This document shows, piece by piece, positions 32,486 through 36,899 of a stretch of 64,000 bases of DNA. How positions within the stretch are numbered: position 1 is the stretch's first letter; every line of letters begins with the position of its first letter. The DNA is taken from NCBI GenBank assembly GCA_964627215.1, contig CAZVIZ010000003.1, positions 14,685 to 78,684 of the forward strand, given 5' to 3'. The DNA comes from an uncultured Dehalococcoidales bacterium. GTDB taxonomy: Bacteria; Chloroflexota; Dehalococcoidia; Dehalococcoidales; E44-bin46. The notes beneath the pieces are model-generated. The model was not told the origin of the DNA. It saw only the letters and a program-made list of their open reading frames with translations, and made no database searches. A program made the translations under genes and the position numbers.

Positions 32486-33598
32486 TCAGGCGTAGCACCT
32501 CGCGAGTATGCCCTCCAGCTTGTTCGTTCCTGCCTTTGGGTCGCGGTTCTGCGTCCCCACCCACGTTTTAAGCTTTTTAAGCGCCTCTCCAGAGCGTACC
32601 AGGTCCCTGGCATGGTAGAAGCCCTCCCGTAGGTCCTTGGCCTGCCCTGTCAGGTAGAACATTGGGGCGGCGTTCAGGCAGGCTATCTGCTCCTTGGGGC
32701 CACGCTCCAGCGCTGCCAGCACTGCAACGAAGCTCACGGACTCCTCGTCACGGTCTGCGGATGGGCCTATCGCCTCTGGGGTAGGGCGGTCTATGCCCAG
32801 ATCCTGGGCGTTAAGGGAGAGCTTCTTTATGTCGCCTTCGGCTGTAAGCTCGGATATCATCGTGTCGCCCAGGGTAGATAGCTCGTCCATACCCCGGCCG
32901 TTGCCGTTTGAGCCGTGGAAAACCAGTGCCCTCTGGTAGCCTATGTCCCGCATCACGCGGCTCACTGGCGCCACCAGTTCTGGGGAGTGCACCCCTCGCA
33001 CCCCGTAGTGGGGTAGGGCTGGGTTGGCCAGGGAGCCGGCGATATTCAGTGTGGTGCCGAAGCGTATCTGGCTTAGTATGCGGAACAGGGCGCGGGGGTG
33101 TACCTTCGGGCTCATGCCGTTGAACATACCGATGCCAGCCTCCTCTATGCTGCGCTTCACTACGTCCACTTCGCATTCCACATCCACTCCCACCGCCTCT
33201 AGTATGTCCACCGCGCCGCAGGTGGAGGTCAGCGCCCTCGCCCCGTGTTTGGCCATGCACACGCCGCCGGCGGCGGCGATGACGGCAGCGACGGTGGAGA
33301 TATTGAACGTCTTCATGGTGTCCATGCCCGTGCCGCAGTTTTCCACCAGGGGTTGCGGGACGTCCGGTGTCACCTTCACCGTGTCCAGCTCGTATATAGC
33401 CTCCCAGGCGGCGGCTATCTCCTCTGCGGTTTCCCCCTTTGCGGTGAGAGCCGCAAGGAATGCCCCCTGTTGAAGCTCCGGCTGCTCGTCAAGGAGAACT
33501 TGACGGAACATCTCCTTGGCCTCCTCGCAACTCAGATTCTCTCCTTGAATGAGGCGGACTACAAGTGAGCCGAACTCCTTAAGCCTTTCCTCTGTCAA
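32486..33598 (-). CDS. Anthranilate-phosphoribosyltransferase-like protein (TrpD paralogue)
   Basis: KGETAEEI, CGTGMD, TFNIST, AKHGAR, GMDELS; outside a trp operon; SD AGGAGG before TTG. Confidence 0.85.
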   Translation of the reverse strand: MTEERLKEFGSLVVRLIQGENLSCEEAKEMFRQVLLDEQPELQQGAFLAALTAKGETAEEIAAAWEAIYELDTVKVTPDVPQPLVENCGTGMDTMKTFNISTVAAVIAAAGGVCMAKHGARALTSTCGAVDILEAVGVDVECEVDVVKRSIEEAGIGMFNGMSPKVHPRALFRILSQIRFGTTLNIAGSLANPALPHYGVRGVHSPELVAPVSRVMRDIGYQRALVFHGSNGNGRGMDELSTLGDTMISELTAEGDIKKLSLNAQDLGIDRPTPEAIGPSADRDEESVSFVAVLAALERGPKEQIACLNAAPMFYLTGQAKDLREGFYHARDLVRSGEALKKLKTWVGTQNRDPKAGTNKLEGILARCYA

Positions 33599-33612
33599 CT
33601 TAACCTCCTTAT

Positions 33613-34617
33613 TTAGGGGAATGTGATAATCGTTTTAAGCCCTCGACGTCCTTGGGCAAGCTCAAGACCTCGTTCCAGCCCTTCAAGCGGTAGCCGCTGT
33701 GTAATGAGGCGGCTCGCCGGCACCTCCCCCGAGGCGATGAGACTAAGTGCGCGGCGGTTCTGGCTGGCGGTGGAGCCGTATGCCCCCACCACCGCAAGCT
33801 CGCGGTAGTGGATGAGATCGCCGTTCATAGGGGTCTTGGGGCTGCCCCTTCCTCCCGAGAACAGACACAGCCGTCCTCTCGGCTTAAGCAGGGGCAGCAG
33901 TTGGGCGGGGTCGGCCTGAGAGCAGGCGGGTATTATCACGTCCACCCCCTGCCCCCCGGTCTCCTCGGCCACCGCCCTACCCAGGGGCTCGTTCTGTGAG
34001 TCTATTAAGCGGTCTATGTTAAATCCCTTAGGGGGAGCGAGCCTCTGCGGCAGTGTCTCCGCCACCAGCACGCTTTCAGCGCCGTTTGCGCGAGCCAGCG
34101 CGGCGTTTAGAAGGCCCAAAGGCCCTGCCCCCACTACTAAAACGCTGTCTCCCTGTTTAAGCCCCGCCATCTCATGGCCGTTTATAGCGCTTGCCAGCGG
34201 TTCTGCCAGGGATGCCTCCTCGTAGCTCAAGTTGGGGGGGATTGGGTTTAGTACCCCCCGCGGCGGCACGATAACCCTCTCGGCGAAGCCGCCGTGGTGG
34301 CTGAAGCCGATTATGGCGATGCGGCGGCACTGGTTCTCCGCCCCGCCCAGGCAGGGGGGACACTCTCCGCAGCATATGCCGGGGTATATCTGGACGCGCT
34401 CGCCGATGGCTTCCCCCTCTACCACCACCCCGGCCACCTCGTGGCCCAGTATGCGGGGGTATTTTAGGTCGCGGTGGCCGTTTGCAAACATCTCGGCATC
34501 AGTGGTGCATATGGAGCAGGCCTTTACCGACACCTTTGCCCCCCCAGTGGGGCAGGTCGGCTCGGCTATGTCCTCTATCGTAAGCTTAAGCGGCGCTCTC
34601 AGCAGGGCTGCCTTCAT
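33613..34617 (-). CDS. Zinc-dependent medium-chain dehydrogenase (threonine/sorbitol DH-like)
   Basis: CSICTTD, GHE, CGECPPC..QC, EPLA, GAGPLG; ATG 34617 after GGAGAAGGGG. Confidence 0.92.
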   Translation of the reverse strand: MKAALLRAPLKLTIEDIAEPTCPTGGAKVSVKACSICTTDAEMFANGHRDLKYPRILGHEVAGVVVEGEAIGERVQIYPGICCGECPPCLGGAENQCRRIAIIGFSHHGGFAERVIVPPRGVLNPIPPNLSYEEASLAEPLASAINGHEMAGLKQGDSVLVVGAGPLGLLNAALARANGAESVLVAETLPQRLAPPKGFNIDRLIDSQNEPLGRAVAEETGGQGVDVIIPACSQADPAQLLPLLKPRGRLCLFSGGRGSPKTPMNGDLIHYRELAVVGAYGSTASQNRRALSLIASGEVPASRLITQRLPLEGLERGLELAQGRRGLKTIITFP

Positions 34618-34630
34618 ATACCCCTTCTCC

Positions 34631-34671
34631 AAAATAAGAAAATCCCTGAACCGCGTTCGGCTCAGGGATTT
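34631..34671 (-). terminator. Riboswitch expression-platform terminator
   Basis: Minus strand AAATCCCTGAGCCG-aacg-CGGTTCAGGGATTT then U-rich TCTTATTTT. Confidence 0.85.
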
Positions 34672-34710
34672 GCCATCTCCCCTAAAGCCCCCCAACCCGA
34701 GGGTGCTGAT

Positions 34711-34886
34711 GGTCCGTCGGCAGGTCTTCTGGCTTCCGGCTAAAACCTACTTCTCGGGGCCTTCCCTCCCCGCTTAAGGCGAGGAAGTGGCGTAATTCCG
34801 AGTTTCGTAACCGGTTACAGCGGCGGGACCGCACCCGATTTAAACGGGTTTCCCTTTTAAGCCCCCGTAGGGGGGCGCCGACGACC
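34711..34886 (-). ncRNA. Cobalamin (AdoCbl) riboswitch
   Basis: Minus strand AAAAGGGAA..CCCGCCGCTGTAA..GCCACT..GGGAAGG..B12 box AGCCAGAAGACCTGCC; closing stem GGTCGTCGGC/GCCGACGGACC. Confidence 0.93.
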
Positions 34887-34908
34887 GCTTGTATCAAAAG
34901 CTTGAGGT

Positions 34909-34937
34909 ATGATACATAATAAAGGCTTCTTTGTCAA
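34909..34937 (-). promoter_or_regulatory. Sigma70 promoter of the riboswitch operon
   Basis: TTGACA-17 nt-TATCAT on the minus strand just upstream of the aptamer. Confidence 0.8.
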
Positions 34938-35052: not shown

Positions 35053-35658
35053 TTGAATATAGGTTGTATCATCCTTGCTGGGGGCAAGGGCTTACGTTTG
35101 GGGCGAGATAAGGCCTCGGGTATTATCGGTGGTAAGTGCCTGCTGGAGTGGGTGGTGGATGCCGTTGCCTCCCTGGATGGCGACATAATGGTAGTCACCG
35201 CGGTGGGGCAGTCCTTCCCTGGCCTGGAGGAGCGCACAGGCCTTCAGGTGCTTACCGATATATACCCTGGAAAGGGCCCCCTGGGCGGCATCTATACAGG
35301 CCTTAAGGCTTCAAGGGCTTATCACAACATCGTAGTTGCCTGTGACATGCCCTTCCTGAAGGGGCGGTTGCTACGCCATATGGCTGACGTGGCAGAGGGT
35401 TTCGATATGGTCCTGCCCAGGCTGGGTGAGATGGTGGAGCCGCTCTGCGCCGTTTATTCCAAGGGGTGTCTTGCGCCCATAGAGATATTGCTGGGGCGGG
35501 GGGAACTCAGACTGCGGGGGCTACTGCCGATGGTGAAGGTCAGGTATTTGGAGGAGGAGGAAATAGACAGGTTCGACCCCGAGCACCTGAGTTTCTTTAA
35601 CGTGAACAACAACTCTGATATGGAGAGAGCCGAGTCCCTGGCAAGGAGCGAGCTATGA
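35053..35658 (+). CDS. mobA: Molybdenum cofactor guanylyltransferase
   Basis: ILAGGKGLRLGRDKA, GPLGGI, ACDMPF, EPLCAVY, FFNVN. Confidence 0.92.
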   Translation: MNIGCIILAGGKGLRLGRDKASGIIGGKCLLEWVVDAVASLDGDIMVVTAVGQSFPGLEERTGLQVLTDIYPGKGPLGGIYTGLKASRAYHNIVVACDMPFLKGRLLRHMADVAEGFDMVLPRLGEMVEPLCAVYSKGCLAPIEILLGRGELRLRGLLPMVKVRYLEEEEIDRFDPEHLSFFNVNNNSDMERAESLARSEL

Positions 35659-36899
35659 TAACCGTGGATCAGGCACTAGAGCGTATTTTGAGCTACGTGG
35701 ACGTCCTCTCAGAGGAGGATAACCCTATATTGGAGGCACTGGGGCAGGTGGTTAGCCAGGACGTTACCTCTGCTATAGACGTGCCTCCGCTGGATAACTC
35801 GGCCATGGACGGCTATGCGGTGCGGGCGGCCGATACGGCGGGCGCCTCTTCCGAGGAACCCCGCGTCCTCCGTGTCATAGACAGCGTGGCCGCTGGCTAT
35901 GTGTCACGCTCCATTGTGGAGGAAGGCACCGCTGTGCGCATTATGACCGGCGCGCCCGTGCCCCCGGGCGCGGACGCCGTGGTCAAGTTTGAGGACAGCG
36001 ACGAATGCCAGCGCCAGGGTCACCCCCAAGAGATAGGCATCCTCCACGCCGCTGGTAAGGGAGACAACATCCGCCGCGCTGGGGAGGACATTGCCCGGGG
36101 TGGGGTGGTGCTTAAGCGGGGTACGCTGCTAAGGCCCCAGGAGGTAGGCGTATTGGCCTCCCTGGGCATGGTGAATGTGAGCGTGTTCCGCCGCCCCGTG
36201 GTGGCCATACTGGCCACAGGGGATGAGCTGGTGGATATAGGTGAGCCTCTGCCCGAGGGCAAGATATACAACAGCAATACATATGGCTTAGCGGCCCAGG
36301 TGAGGCGCTATGGCGCCCTGCCTCAAGTGCTGGGCATAGCCCGCGATCGCGAGGACTCGGTGATAGCAGGGTTGCGGCGGGGCCTGGACGCCGACATACT
36401 CATAACGAGTGGTGGGGTCTCGGTGGGGGACTACGACTTGGTGAAGGACGTTTTAGCCCAGCAGGGCAAGATAGATTTCTGGACGATTAAGATGAAACCG
36501 GGCAAGCCCATAGCCTTCGGTGTGATAGATGGCGAGTGCGGTCGGCAAGTGCCCCACGTGGGCCTGCCGGGGAACCCTGTAAGCTCTATGATCTCCTTTG
36601 AGCTTTTTATCCGCCCCGCCATACTCAAAATGATGGGGAGACACGATCTGGCCAAGCCTGTAATTAAGGCGGTGGTGGAGGAGGCGGTGGTGAACAGCGA
36701 CGGGCGCCGCATGTTCACCCGTGTCAAGGTGGAGAATAGGGGCGAGGGCTACGTCGCCCACGTCACCGGCCCCCAAGGGTCGGGCATTCTGACCTCCATG
36801 ACGTCTGCGAATGGGCTTATGATTATACCCGAGGATACGGATGGTGTGAGAGCAGGGGATGTGGTTGATGTAATGATGCTTGATTGGGCAGGGAGTTAA
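35655..36899 (+). CDS. moeA: Molybdopterin molybdotransferase MoeA
   Basis: SAMDGYAV, IMTGA, TGDEL, SGGVSVGDYD, GLPGNPVS. Confidence 0.96.
   Translation: MITVDQALERILSYVDVLSEEDNPILEALGQVVSQDVTSAIDVPPLDNSAMDGYAVRAADTAGASSEEPRVLRVIDSVAAGYVSRSIVEEGTAVRIMTGAPVPPGADAVVKFEDSDECQRQGHPQEIGILHAAGKGDNIRRAGEDIARGGVVLKRGTLLRPQEVGVLASLGMVNVSVFRRPVVAILATGDELVDIGEPLPEGKIYNSNTYGLAAQVRRYGALPQVLGIARDREDSVIAGLRRGLDADILITSGGVSVGDYDLVKDVLAQQGKIDFWTIKMKPGKPIAFGVIDGECGRQVPHVGLPGNPVSSMISFELFIRPAILKMMGRHDLAKPVIKAVVEEAVVNSDGRRMFTRVKVENRGEGYVAHVTGPQGSGILTSMTSANGLMIIPEDTDGVRAGDVVDVMMLDWAGS

What the first reader, a model, noticed from the sequence alone, without database searches (positions are those of the whole stretch)
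32486..34937. B12-riboswitch operon: Zn dehydrogenase plus a TrpD paralogue with a rewired acceptor site (candidate uncharacterised cobamide-related pathway)
Seen: promoter (TTGACA-17-TATCAT), AdoCbl aptamer, strong terminator, an MDR dehydrogenase and a TrpD-like gene form a closed two-gene unit, away from any trp gene. The TrpD paralogue keeps PRPP/Mg features (TFNIST, DE) but changes GTGGD to GTGMD and KHGN to KHGA, and has no Arg at the usual anthranilate-carboxylate position (ILSQIRFGTTLN vs VR..LG.RT.FN). Established: cobalamin riboswitches mark cobamide synthesis, salvage or B12-independent bypass genes, and neither enzyme is in the textbook cob/cbi/bza sets. Inference: a phosphoribosyl transfer or phosphorolysis on a non-anthranilate base, plus a threonine/aminoacetone-type redox step toward the aminopropanol linker. 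Caveat: TrpD-fold enzymes give beta-ribotides, so it is unlikely to replace CobT directly. I recall a similar B12-responsive pair in Dehalococcoides, so the pair may be known while its function is not.
Basis: partly seen in the sequence, partly recalled or inferred. Interest (0 to 1): 0.78.

Follow-up and report, generated by a model that had tools for sequence, protein, structure and literature searches.

The report
B12-switched enzyme pair feeding CobT
A vitamin-B12-sensing RNA switch sits ahead of a zinc dehydrogenase and a remodelled copy of the tryptophan enzyme TrpD, a pair that in many other anaerobes lies beside or is fused to CobT (the enzyme that activates B12's lower base), so it likely supplies that base by an undescribed salvage route, possibly by turning an aromatic diamine into a benzimidazole without oxygen.

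Summary
Observation confirmed: promoter, cobalamin riboswitch (114.5 bits, the genome's only one), terminator, Zn-dehydrogenase (MDR) and TrpD paralogue form one unit. The genome has a separate canonical trp operon. The paralogue keeps PRPP motifs but has lost both residues that hold anthranilate's carboxylate (N to A, R to L).

The pair is a fixed module. The MDR is adjacent in 82 of 87 loci (the other 5 at contig ends), a riboswitch precedes it in 40 of 44 bacterial loci, and cobT lies within 2 kb in 43 of 87. MDR::CobT fusions occur. Sister contigs lack exactly the 2.4 kb pair yet keep the riboswitch and a closely related CobT.

So it most likely serves lower-base supply (about 0.7), not the linker. 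cobD and cbiB share its operons, pduX once. D. mccartyi has the pair yet needs DMB, arguing for salvage. The leading chemistry, untested (0.33), is PRPP ribosylation of an o-phenylenediamine-type amine, then NAD oxidation to a benzimidazole. This assembly (88% complete) shows no cobT. No paper surfaced in ten searches; key Dehalococcoides papers were unreadable. This scan reported the pair at least 11 times on other DNA.

The parts
34909..34937 (-). sigma-70-type promoter-like site TTGACA-17-TATCAT
   Evidence: 11 of 12; 2 sites found, 1.5 expected; function not tested
34702..34897 (-). cobalamin riboswitch aptamer (Rfam RF00174)
   Evidence: 114.5 bits, E 5.9e-28; sole match in the genome
34630..34671 (-). 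intrinsic-terminator-like hairpin (14 pairs) with U-rich tail, the likely expression platform; its 5' arm can pair instead with the G-rich stretch just upstream (-15.2 kcal/mol, predicted anti-terminator)
33613..34617 (-). Zn-dependent medium-chain dehydrogenase, 334 aa, of the polyol/threonine-dehydrogenase-like branch; catalytic C37/H59/E60/E139, structural C83/C86/C89/C97, GAGP and E187 conserved (ligand roles and NAD preference assigned by recall of the MDR family)
32486..33598 (-). TrpD-fold phosphoribosyltransferase paralogue, 370 aa, GTGMD/KHGAR/RILSQ clade; PRPP and Mg motifs kept, anthranilate-carboxylate residues lost

Best explanation
The riboswitch-led pair is likely a dispensable add-on that supplies the lower base to CobT when B12 is scarce: the TrpD-like enzyme is predicted to use PRPP to ribosylate a neutral aromatic amine (most likely an o-phenylenediamine such as 4,5-dimethylphenylenediamine), and the zinc dehydrogenase would then oxidise the labile sugar adduct with NAD so that it closes and fragments to a benzimidazole, which CobT would activate. 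Shown: the regulatory elements, the fixed pairing, the linkage and fusion to CobT, the joint absence of both genes in sister contigs, the kept PRPP motifs and the lost carboxylate contacts. From family knowledge: bound cobalamin would favour the terminator and shut the genes off. Inferred: action on the lower-base side of CobT (about 0.7), and salvage rather than synthesis from central metabolites (about 0.55). Guessed: the diamine substrate and the order TrpD-like, MDR, CobT (about 0.33, the figure given). It would be an enzyme-run, oxygen-free form of the diamine + ribose-5-phosphate oxidative route to DMB (chemistry recalled; only the paper's title was seen).
For: Module: the MDR is adjacent in 82 of 87 loci, the other 5 at contig ends. 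One MDR::TrpD-like fusion exists, a singleton. B12 control: 40 of 44 bacterial pair loci have RF00174 upstream. CobT link: same-strand cobT within 2 kb in 43 of 87 loci, archaeal type in 33 and bacterial type in 10, with two gene orders. cobT was found in 38 of 45 pair-bearing genomes. MDR::CobT fusions: P0276 and P0277, and 10 of 35 metagenome loci, with the TrpD-like gene directly upstream in all 8 that have upstream DNA. L109 reads btuF-btuC-btuD-cbiZ-cbiB-cobD-[riboswitch]-MDR-TrpD-like-cobT-cobS-cobC-cobU. Accessory: L121 and L114 match L122 and L116 at 77-87% on both sides but lack exactly the 2.4 kb pair; they keep the riboswitch, and their CobT interleaves in the tree with the fused ones. 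One of two pair-less genomes of genus g4 has a cobT-bzaC-bzaD-bzaE-like-bzaA-like-bzaB cluster instead. Salvage: CbiZ in 8 of 11 pair-bearing against 46 of 290 other genomes of one phylum sample (Fisher 7e-5, kin not independent). D. mccartyi still needs DMB (PMC11321594 and PMC4285132 passages). Acceptor: R193 and N138 hold the carboxylate in Mtb TrpD (PMC9835598). They read L and A/S in all 120 homologues tallied, apart from 2 whose KHG motif the pattern missed, and GTGMD is in 120 of 120. The lab variant N138A reads KHGARA like this protein.
Against: No substrate was tested, and no natural source of the diamine in anaerobes is known to me. The invariant Arg173 might still bind an anion. The pair also occurs in genomes with tandem bzaAB-like genes (G322, G335) or 2-3 ThiC-like genes (Methanothrix-type genomes), so it is not simply an alternative to bza. 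G132 and G268 have cobT but neither the pair nor extra ThiC-like genes, and three pair-less genomes of this window's family have cobT. In 44 of 87 loci cobT is not nearby, and in G841 the fusion and the TrpD-like gene are unlinked. This assembly shows no cobT, cobS, cbiB, cobU or cbiZ. It is 88% complete, and the syntenic relative G936 has cobT-cobS-cobC on another contig. A fusion does not prove consecutive steps. The loci are the best 80 of 540 and rich in Methanothrix and Methanomassiliicoccales kin.
Confidence: 0.33

Rival explanations
1. Trap or anomer route for free benzimidazoles. The TrpD-like enzyme ribosylates DMB or a related azole to the beta-ribotide, concentrating a scarce base. 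The MDR, by transient oxidation at C2' or C3', inverts C1' or releases the base next to CobT.
For: Hydrophobic acceptor pocket; CobT fusion; enrichment with CbiZ; free benzimidazoles occur in the environment (PMC4230183 passages); consistent with D. mccartyi needing DMB.
Against: If it made the alpha-ribotide, CobT would be redundant, yet the two are linked and fused. If it only released the base, the cycle wastes PRPP. An azole nitrogen is not the aryl-amine nucleophile of TrpD.
Confidence: 0.2
2. Editing or recycling. The pair removes a wrong base or wrong ribotide isomer before CobT/CobS use it, or reclaims the ribose and base of the nucleotide tail that CbiZ cuts off during remodelling.
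For: CbiZ in 41 of 58 pair-bearing genomes against 2 of 9 pair-less ones and 8 of 11 against 46 of 290. The pair-less operons L176 and L178 lack cbiZ too. Dispensable and blind to bza status.
Against: A TrpD fold acts on beta-ribotides, while cobamide leftovers are alpha (family knowledge). G132 and G150 have CbiZ without the pair. The CbiZ enrichment was not conditioned on cobT.
Confidence: 0.15
3. Ribosyl-donor supply. The TrpD-like enzyme makes a beta-ribotide from PRPP (NaMN from the nicotinate that CobT releases, or a substitute), which CobT inverts to the alpha product. The MDR makes or recycles the carrier.
For: The stereochemistry alpha-PRPP to beta to alpha fits. No PncB-like gene was found in the Methanothrix-type, ANME-1 and Syntrophoarchaeum genomes searched, where the pair abuts cobT. 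nadB lies in the L056 operon.
Against: A PncB-like gene is present in all 9 family-f3 genomes, with and without the pair, and in this genome. The carboxylate-binding residues are lost, which suits nicotinate badly. By eye, CobT active-site motifs do not differ with or without the pair. It gives the MDR no clear job.
Confidence: 0.12
4. One reading: the MDR performs a threonine/aminoacetone/aminopropanol redox step, and the pair stands in for PduX or CobD.
For: Threonine dehydrogenases are among the nearest solved structures, at about 30% identity. No PduX-like gene was found in 33 of 40 genomes searched with one query. cobD and cbiB are frequent neighbours.
Against: Far below TDH cut-offs. All 7 PduX-like hits are in pair-bearing genomes, one in the same operon. 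Pair-less G132, G150 and G268 have cobD and cbiB with no PduX-like hit either. The MDR fuses to CobT, and no fusion to CobD or CbiB was found. It leaves the PRPP enzyme unexplained.
Confidence: 0.08
5. A second anthranilate phosphoribosyltransferase, or a B12-independent bypass unrelated to cobamide assembly.
For: Scores 260 bits on TIGR01245, above the 199 cut-off. The fold matches TrpD at TM 0.78-0.86. Databases name it so.
Against: A canonical trpD is in the same genome. Grouping the two is rejected (p-AU 2e-49). Carboxylate contacts are lost. Neighbours are cob genes; a trp operon abuts it only once, in L181.
Confidence: 0.03

Closest known systems
Anthranilate phosphoribosyltransferase TrpD (EC 2.4.2.18; TIGR01245; PF02885+PF00591; PDB 9UCW, 1ZVW, 1ZYK)
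   Same: Fold (TM 0.78-0.86, 26-35% identity); GTGxD, NIST, KHGxR and DE motifs for PRPP and Mg; passes the TIGR01245 cut-off.
   Different: GTGMD for GTGGD, Ala for the carboxylate Asn, Leu for the carboxylate Arg, Ser for the Pro of GP, and a two-residue FNGMS insertion; separate clade; B12 riboswitch, MDR partner and cob context instead of trp context.
YbiB / 'TrpD2' DNA-binding proteins (NF006005; PDB 4MUO)
   Same: TrpD fold, not in trp operons.
   Different: YbiB lacks the PRPP motif (PMC9835598); this protein keeps it and scores 42 bits against a cut-off of 185. The label trpD2 in my scripts is only shorthand.
Zn-dependent MDRs: L-threonine 3-dehydrogenase (TIGR00692, 2DFV), scyllo-inosose dehydrogenase IolM (NF041097), polyol dehydrogenases, S. 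meliloti 4EJ6
   Same: Two-zinc MDR fold (TM about 0.9) and NAD-type binding motif.
   Different: About 30% identity and below every NCBIfam cut-off shown; its own conserved motifs (GH.DL.YPR, GF..DGGFAE, FSG, HY.E, GAYG); fused to CobT in some bacteria.
Lower-ligand supply cassettes tied to CobT: bzaABCDE/bzaF, BluB and BluB-CobT2 fusions, CblT/CblS
   Same: Cobalamin riboswitch, position next to cobT, fusion to CobT (BluB/CobT2 seen as a search listing), optional in close relatives.
   Different: No radical-SAM, flavin-destructase or kinase domain; occurs with or without bza-like genes; does not free D. mccartyi from needing DMB. CblT/CblS details are recalled.

Membership tests
Cobalamin riboswitch (RF00174) | Covariance-model score above 31.5 bits over the whole model | tested here: met
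   114.5 bits, positions 1-189 of 189
Cobalamin riboswitch (RF00174) | Expression platform between aptamer and first gene | tested here: met
   14-pair terminator with U tail, alternative pairing predicted, similar hairpin in 16 relatives
Cobalamin riboswitch (RF00174) | Cobalamin binding and repression | not testable with these tools
   No RNA holder listed
TrpD (anthranilate PRT) | Type III PRT fold and family score | tested here: met
TrpD (anthranilate PRT) | PRPP/Mg-binding motifs (GTGGD loop, loop after KHG, Asp-Glu) | tested here: inconclusive
   All present, but the fourth position of GTGGD is Met in 85 of 86 loci proteins and 120 of 120 homologues; binding itself not tested
TrpD (anthranilate PRT) | Arg (Mtb R193) and Asn (N138) holding the anthranilate carboxylate | tested here: not met
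   Leu175 and Ala120; invariant Arg173 not placed in 3D
TrpD (anthranilate PRT) | Groups with canonical TrpD and lies in trp context | tested here: not met
   Separate clade, p-AU 2e-49 against grouping with the genome's own TrpD; cob context
TrpD (anthranilate PRT) | Converts anthranilate + PRPP to PRA | not testable with these tools
   Needs assay or complementation
YbiB/TrpD2 | Loss of the PRPP-binding motif; NF006005 cut-off | tested here: not met
   Motif kept; 42 against 185 bits
Zn-dependent MDR superfamily | ADH_N + ADH_zinc_N domains, zinc ligands, GxGxxG | tested here: met
L-threonine 3-dehydrogenase | TIGR00692 / NF003808 equivalog cut-offs | tested here: not met
   154 against 458 and 140 against 380 bits
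bza anaerobic benzimidazole pathway | ThiC-like BzaA/B/F radical-SAM enzyme in the cassette | tested here: not met
   Neither gene is ThiC-like; this genome and 7 of 7 pair-bearing f3 genomes have a single ThiC-like gene
Cobamide lower-ligand supply module (works like) | B12 control plus linkage or fusion to CobT | tested here: met
   met in relatives, cobT not found in this assembly
Cobamide lower-ligand supply module (works like) | Makes a base or ribotide that enters a cobamide | not testable with these tools
   Needs biochemistry

The most novel reading that the evidence does not exclude
The pair is a third route to the benzimidazole base of B12, beside BluB and Bza: a PRPP- and NAD-dependent, oxygen-free conversion of aromatic ortho-diamines (perhaps flavin breakdown products) into benzimidazoles, handed straight to CobT. 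It would be shared by Dehalococcoides, Methanothrix, Methanomassiliicoccales, ANME-1 and sulfate-reducer kin, and would reveal a hidden cross-fed B12 precursor in anaerobic communities.
Probability: 0.3. Interest if true: 0.88.

Novelty: new variant of a known kind. Interest (0 to 1): 0.7.

Why it matters
Where anaerobes such as Dehalococcoides get the lower base of their cobamides is stated as unclear in a 2024 review (PMC11321594, passage read), and that base limits dechlorination. Here is a two-enzyme module, present at about 540 places among species-representative genomes. Databases label it ordinary TrpD plus an alcohol dehydrogenase. Riboswitch, operon position, fusion and clean gain or loss tie it to CobT. 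Whatever the exact substrate, it points to an unassigned step of cobamide assembly that a few small-molecule assays can settle. It also gives the TrpD fold a probable new acceptor, and it flags a systematic mis-annotation, since the protein passes the TrpD equivalog cut-off.

Tried and rejected
Literature. Ten full-text searches found no paper describing the pair; four returned nothing. Johnson 2009, Yi 2012, Men 2012, both Men 2014 papers and Men 2017 on D. mccartyi corrinoid responses are not held. I recall that such transcriptome work lists this gene pair as B12-responsive, so its regulation may be in print; their supplements could bear on novelty.

Complex prediction of the two proteins was not available, so nothing is claimed about binding. 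No RNA holder was listed.

Replacement of CobT: rejected, as cobT is adjacent, fused or elsewhere in 38 of 45 genomes. Replacement of bza: not supported, as they co-occur in some genomes. Replacement of PncB: mixed. Replacement of PduX: no complementarity, from a single-protein query only. A CobT specialised for the pair: no difference seen by eye, and the sequences interleave in the tree.

TrpD-like::CobT fusions: none found, but lengths 649-707 were not covered, and one search lists only representatives. P0124 and P0275 look like read-through artefacts. Archaeal riboswitches: 0 of 9 loci. The ESM Atlas and fold searches for the MDR gave only generic MDR hits. A link to 5-methylbenzimidazole producers (recalled for Methanothrix) could not be checked.
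Full report
1. Observation. These are a promoter-like site at 34937-34909, a cobalamin aptamer at 34897-34702 (114.5 bits; the only one in this 929 kb, 88% complete genome), and a 14-pair terminator at 34671-34640. A 334-aa MDR (34617-33613) and a 370-aa TrpD-like gene (33598-32486) follow, 14 nt apart. A convergent gene closes the unit. The host is a Dehalococcoidia-type bacterium by its nearest named homologues. It has two B12-binding-type proteins by motif, so it probably uses cobamides.

2. The TrpD-like protein. It passes the TrpD equivalog cut-off (260 against 199 bits) and folds like TrpD (pLDDT 92; TM 0.78-0.86). The genome has a canonical trpD in a trp cluster. The paralogue belongs to a separate clade, and grouping it with that TrpD is rejected (subsets of 67 and 24 rows chosen from 197). 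A review (PMC9835598; I read part 1 of 5 and passages) assigns the PRPP contacts to the GTGGD loop, S142/S143 and D251, and the carboxylate contacts to R193 and N138 of the Mtb enzyme. Here the PRPP motifs are kept, GTGGD reads GTGMD (85 of 86 loci proteins; 120 of 120 top homologues), N reads A or S, and R reads L. The lab variant N138A aligns as KHGARA, as in this protein. The simplest reading is a PRPP enzyme for an anthranilate-like acceptor without a carboxylate. Against: Arg173 is invariant and I could not locate it in the model.

3. The MDR. Both zinc sites and an NAD-type motif are conserved over 38 aligned members. The nearest solved structures are an unassigned S. meliloti enzyme, threonine dehydrogenases and polyol dehydrogenases at about 30%. 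It falls far below every equivalog cut-off. Its substrate cannot be read from the family.

4. The pair is one module. A scan of species-representative genomes found 540 stretches encoding a relative; the best 80 were returned and 7 more came from a phylum sample (8 of 301 positive, this genome included). The MDR is adjacent in 82 of 87 loci, and the other 5 end within 235 nt of the gene. Hosts named in record titles include Dehalococcoidales, Methanothrix, Methanomassiliicoccales, ANME-1, Syntrophoarchaeum, Formimonas and Thermodesulfobacteriota. The pair is patchy: 8 of 301 in a Bacillota-type sample, and 11 of 301 recognised in a Thermodesulfobacteriota-type sample (low-scoring copies may be missed). 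A cobalamin riboswitch lies upstream in 40 of 44 bacterial pair loci scanned (10 of 10, 13 of 16, 8 of 8, 3 of 4, 6 of 6; L196 dropped as a duplicate of L004). Two misses lie deep in cob operons, one at a contig start and one in a divergent copy. The two unlinked loci of G841 have none. None was found in 9 archaeal loci.

5. It is tied to CobT. A same-strand cobT lies within 2 kb in 43 of 87 loci, archaeal type in 33 and bacterial type in 10, and the gene order differs between lineages. Most of the 33 are Methanothrix kin, so they are not independent. L109 holds the pair inside a whole salvage operon directly before cobT-cobS-cobC-cobU. L056 holds it after nadB, a PduX-like GHMP kinase (name by recall), cobD and cbiB, and before cobT. 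Prompted by earlier notes of this scan, I searched for fusions and found MDR::CobT proteins. In metagenomes 10 of 35 loci encode the full fusion, and all 8 with upstream DNA have the TrpD-like gene right before it. cobT of either type was found in 38 of 45 pair-bearing genomes. This assembly is among the 7 without and also lacks cobS, cbiB, cobU and cbiZ. A gap is likely, because 4 of 5 same-family genomes have cobT, including syntenic G936, and in G301 the cbiZ-cbiB stretch runs off a contig end.

6. It is optional. Contigs L121 and L114 match L122 and L116 on both sides but lack exactly the 2.4 kb holding the TrpD-like gene and the MDR domain. They keep the riboswitch, and their CobT interleaves with the fused ones in a tree of 33. 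In genus g4 the same operon occurs with the pair (G057) and without it (G150, G132). G150 carries a cobS-cobT-bzaC-bzaD-bzaE-like-bzaA-like-bzaB cluster instead, but G132 carries neither, and G322 and G335 carry both the pair and tandem ThiC-like genes. CbiZ is over-represented with the pair: 41 of 58 against 2 of 9, and 8 of 11 against 46 of 290. Neither comparison is corrected for kinship or for cobT.

7. Mechanism. The module acts most plausibly upstream of CobT on the base side (about 0.7). It is not a complete synthesis from central metabolites: D. mccartyi has it and remodels cobamides only when DMB is given (passages of PMC11321594 and PMC4285132). I commit to salvage of an aromatic ortho-diamine. 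TrpD chemistry on an aniline nitrogen would be kept while the carboxylate contacts are dropped. The N-ribosyl amine anomerises and can open (anomerisation per PMC9835598). A two-electron NAD oxidation would stand in for the oxygen of the non-enzymatic diamine + ribose-5-phosphate route to DMB (Maggio-Hall 2003: title seen in a reference list; content recalled). That would explain the anaerobic host range, the fusion and the gene order TrpD-like, MDR::CobT. Its weakness is that I know no natural source of the diamine. Probability about 0.33. Rivals: benzimidazole trap or anomer route 0.2, editing or recycling 0.15, ribosyl donor for CobT 0.12 (mixed), linker redox 0.08, plain TrpD or bypass 0.03.

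8. Comparison and novelty. It works like the known lower-ligand cassettes (bza, BluB, CblTS) in control and position but shares no enzyme family with them. It is not a member of TrpD (carboxylate contacts and clade not met), YbiB/TrpD2 (keeps the PRPP motif) or threonine dehydrogenase. Ten searches of an open-access library found no description. The main D. mccartyi transcriptome papers could not be read, and I recall that they list the pair as B12-responsive. Shelton 2019 and a 2021 review were seen only as passages. This scan has reported the same pair on other DNA at least 11 times; those notes are unchecked leads, not support. I did not see in their short texts the sister-contig deletions, the CbiZ, PduX, PncB and bza profiles or the diamine proposal.

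9. Verdict. A real, conserved, B12-regulated and apparently uncharacterised two-enzyme module of cobamide lower-base supply, mis-annotated as TrpD plus alcohol dehydrogenase. New variant of a known kind; interest 0.7.

Noticed in passing
L103:13714-17070: A second cobalamin riboswitch precedes a 188-aa hydrophobic protein with no Pfam match, a ferredoxin-like gene and an aldehyde:ferredoxin oxidoreductase; possibly an unknown B12-controlled transporter and redox unit.
   Followed up: partly
L110:3722-12872 (G150): A genome of the same family as D. mccartyi carries a riboswitch-led cobS-cobT-bzaC-bzaD-bzaE-like-bzaA-like-bzaB cluster, i.e. a probable complete anaerobic DMB pathway in a group usually described as needing supplied DMB.
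   Followed up: partly
P0128, P0130, P0146, P0150, P0155: Deeper-branching relatives keep the R.LSQ.RF helix but have other loops (GTGGD/GTGAD/GTGSD, KKGA, RHAA); their gene context was not seen.
   Followed up: partly
L085-L089, L006, L008, L011 leaders: Two terminator-like hairpins in tandem follow the aptamer in these relatives, against one in this window.
   Followed up: no
L020: The record is titled Actinomycetota but has archaeal-type cobT and the same gene order as Methanothrix loci, with many broken frames; probably a mis-binned contig.
   Followed up: no
L183:7268-11108 (G861): A related MDR lies between a PRA-isomerase-like gene and a DeoC/LacD-type aldolase, a different unexplained cassette.
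   Followed up: no
L014, L018, L022 and other Methanomassiliicoccales loci: The pair is flanked by a 4Fe-4S protein upstream and a convergent dihydropteroate-synthase-like gene downstream; probably plain synteny among kin.
   Followed up: partly
G033, G096, G069, G276: Four to seven CbiZ-family copies per genome.
   Followed up: no
window 35053-36899: A MobA-like gene and an MoeA-like gene (the second named by recall) start divergently from the riboswitch promoter; the arrangement is syntenic in G936.
   Followed up: no
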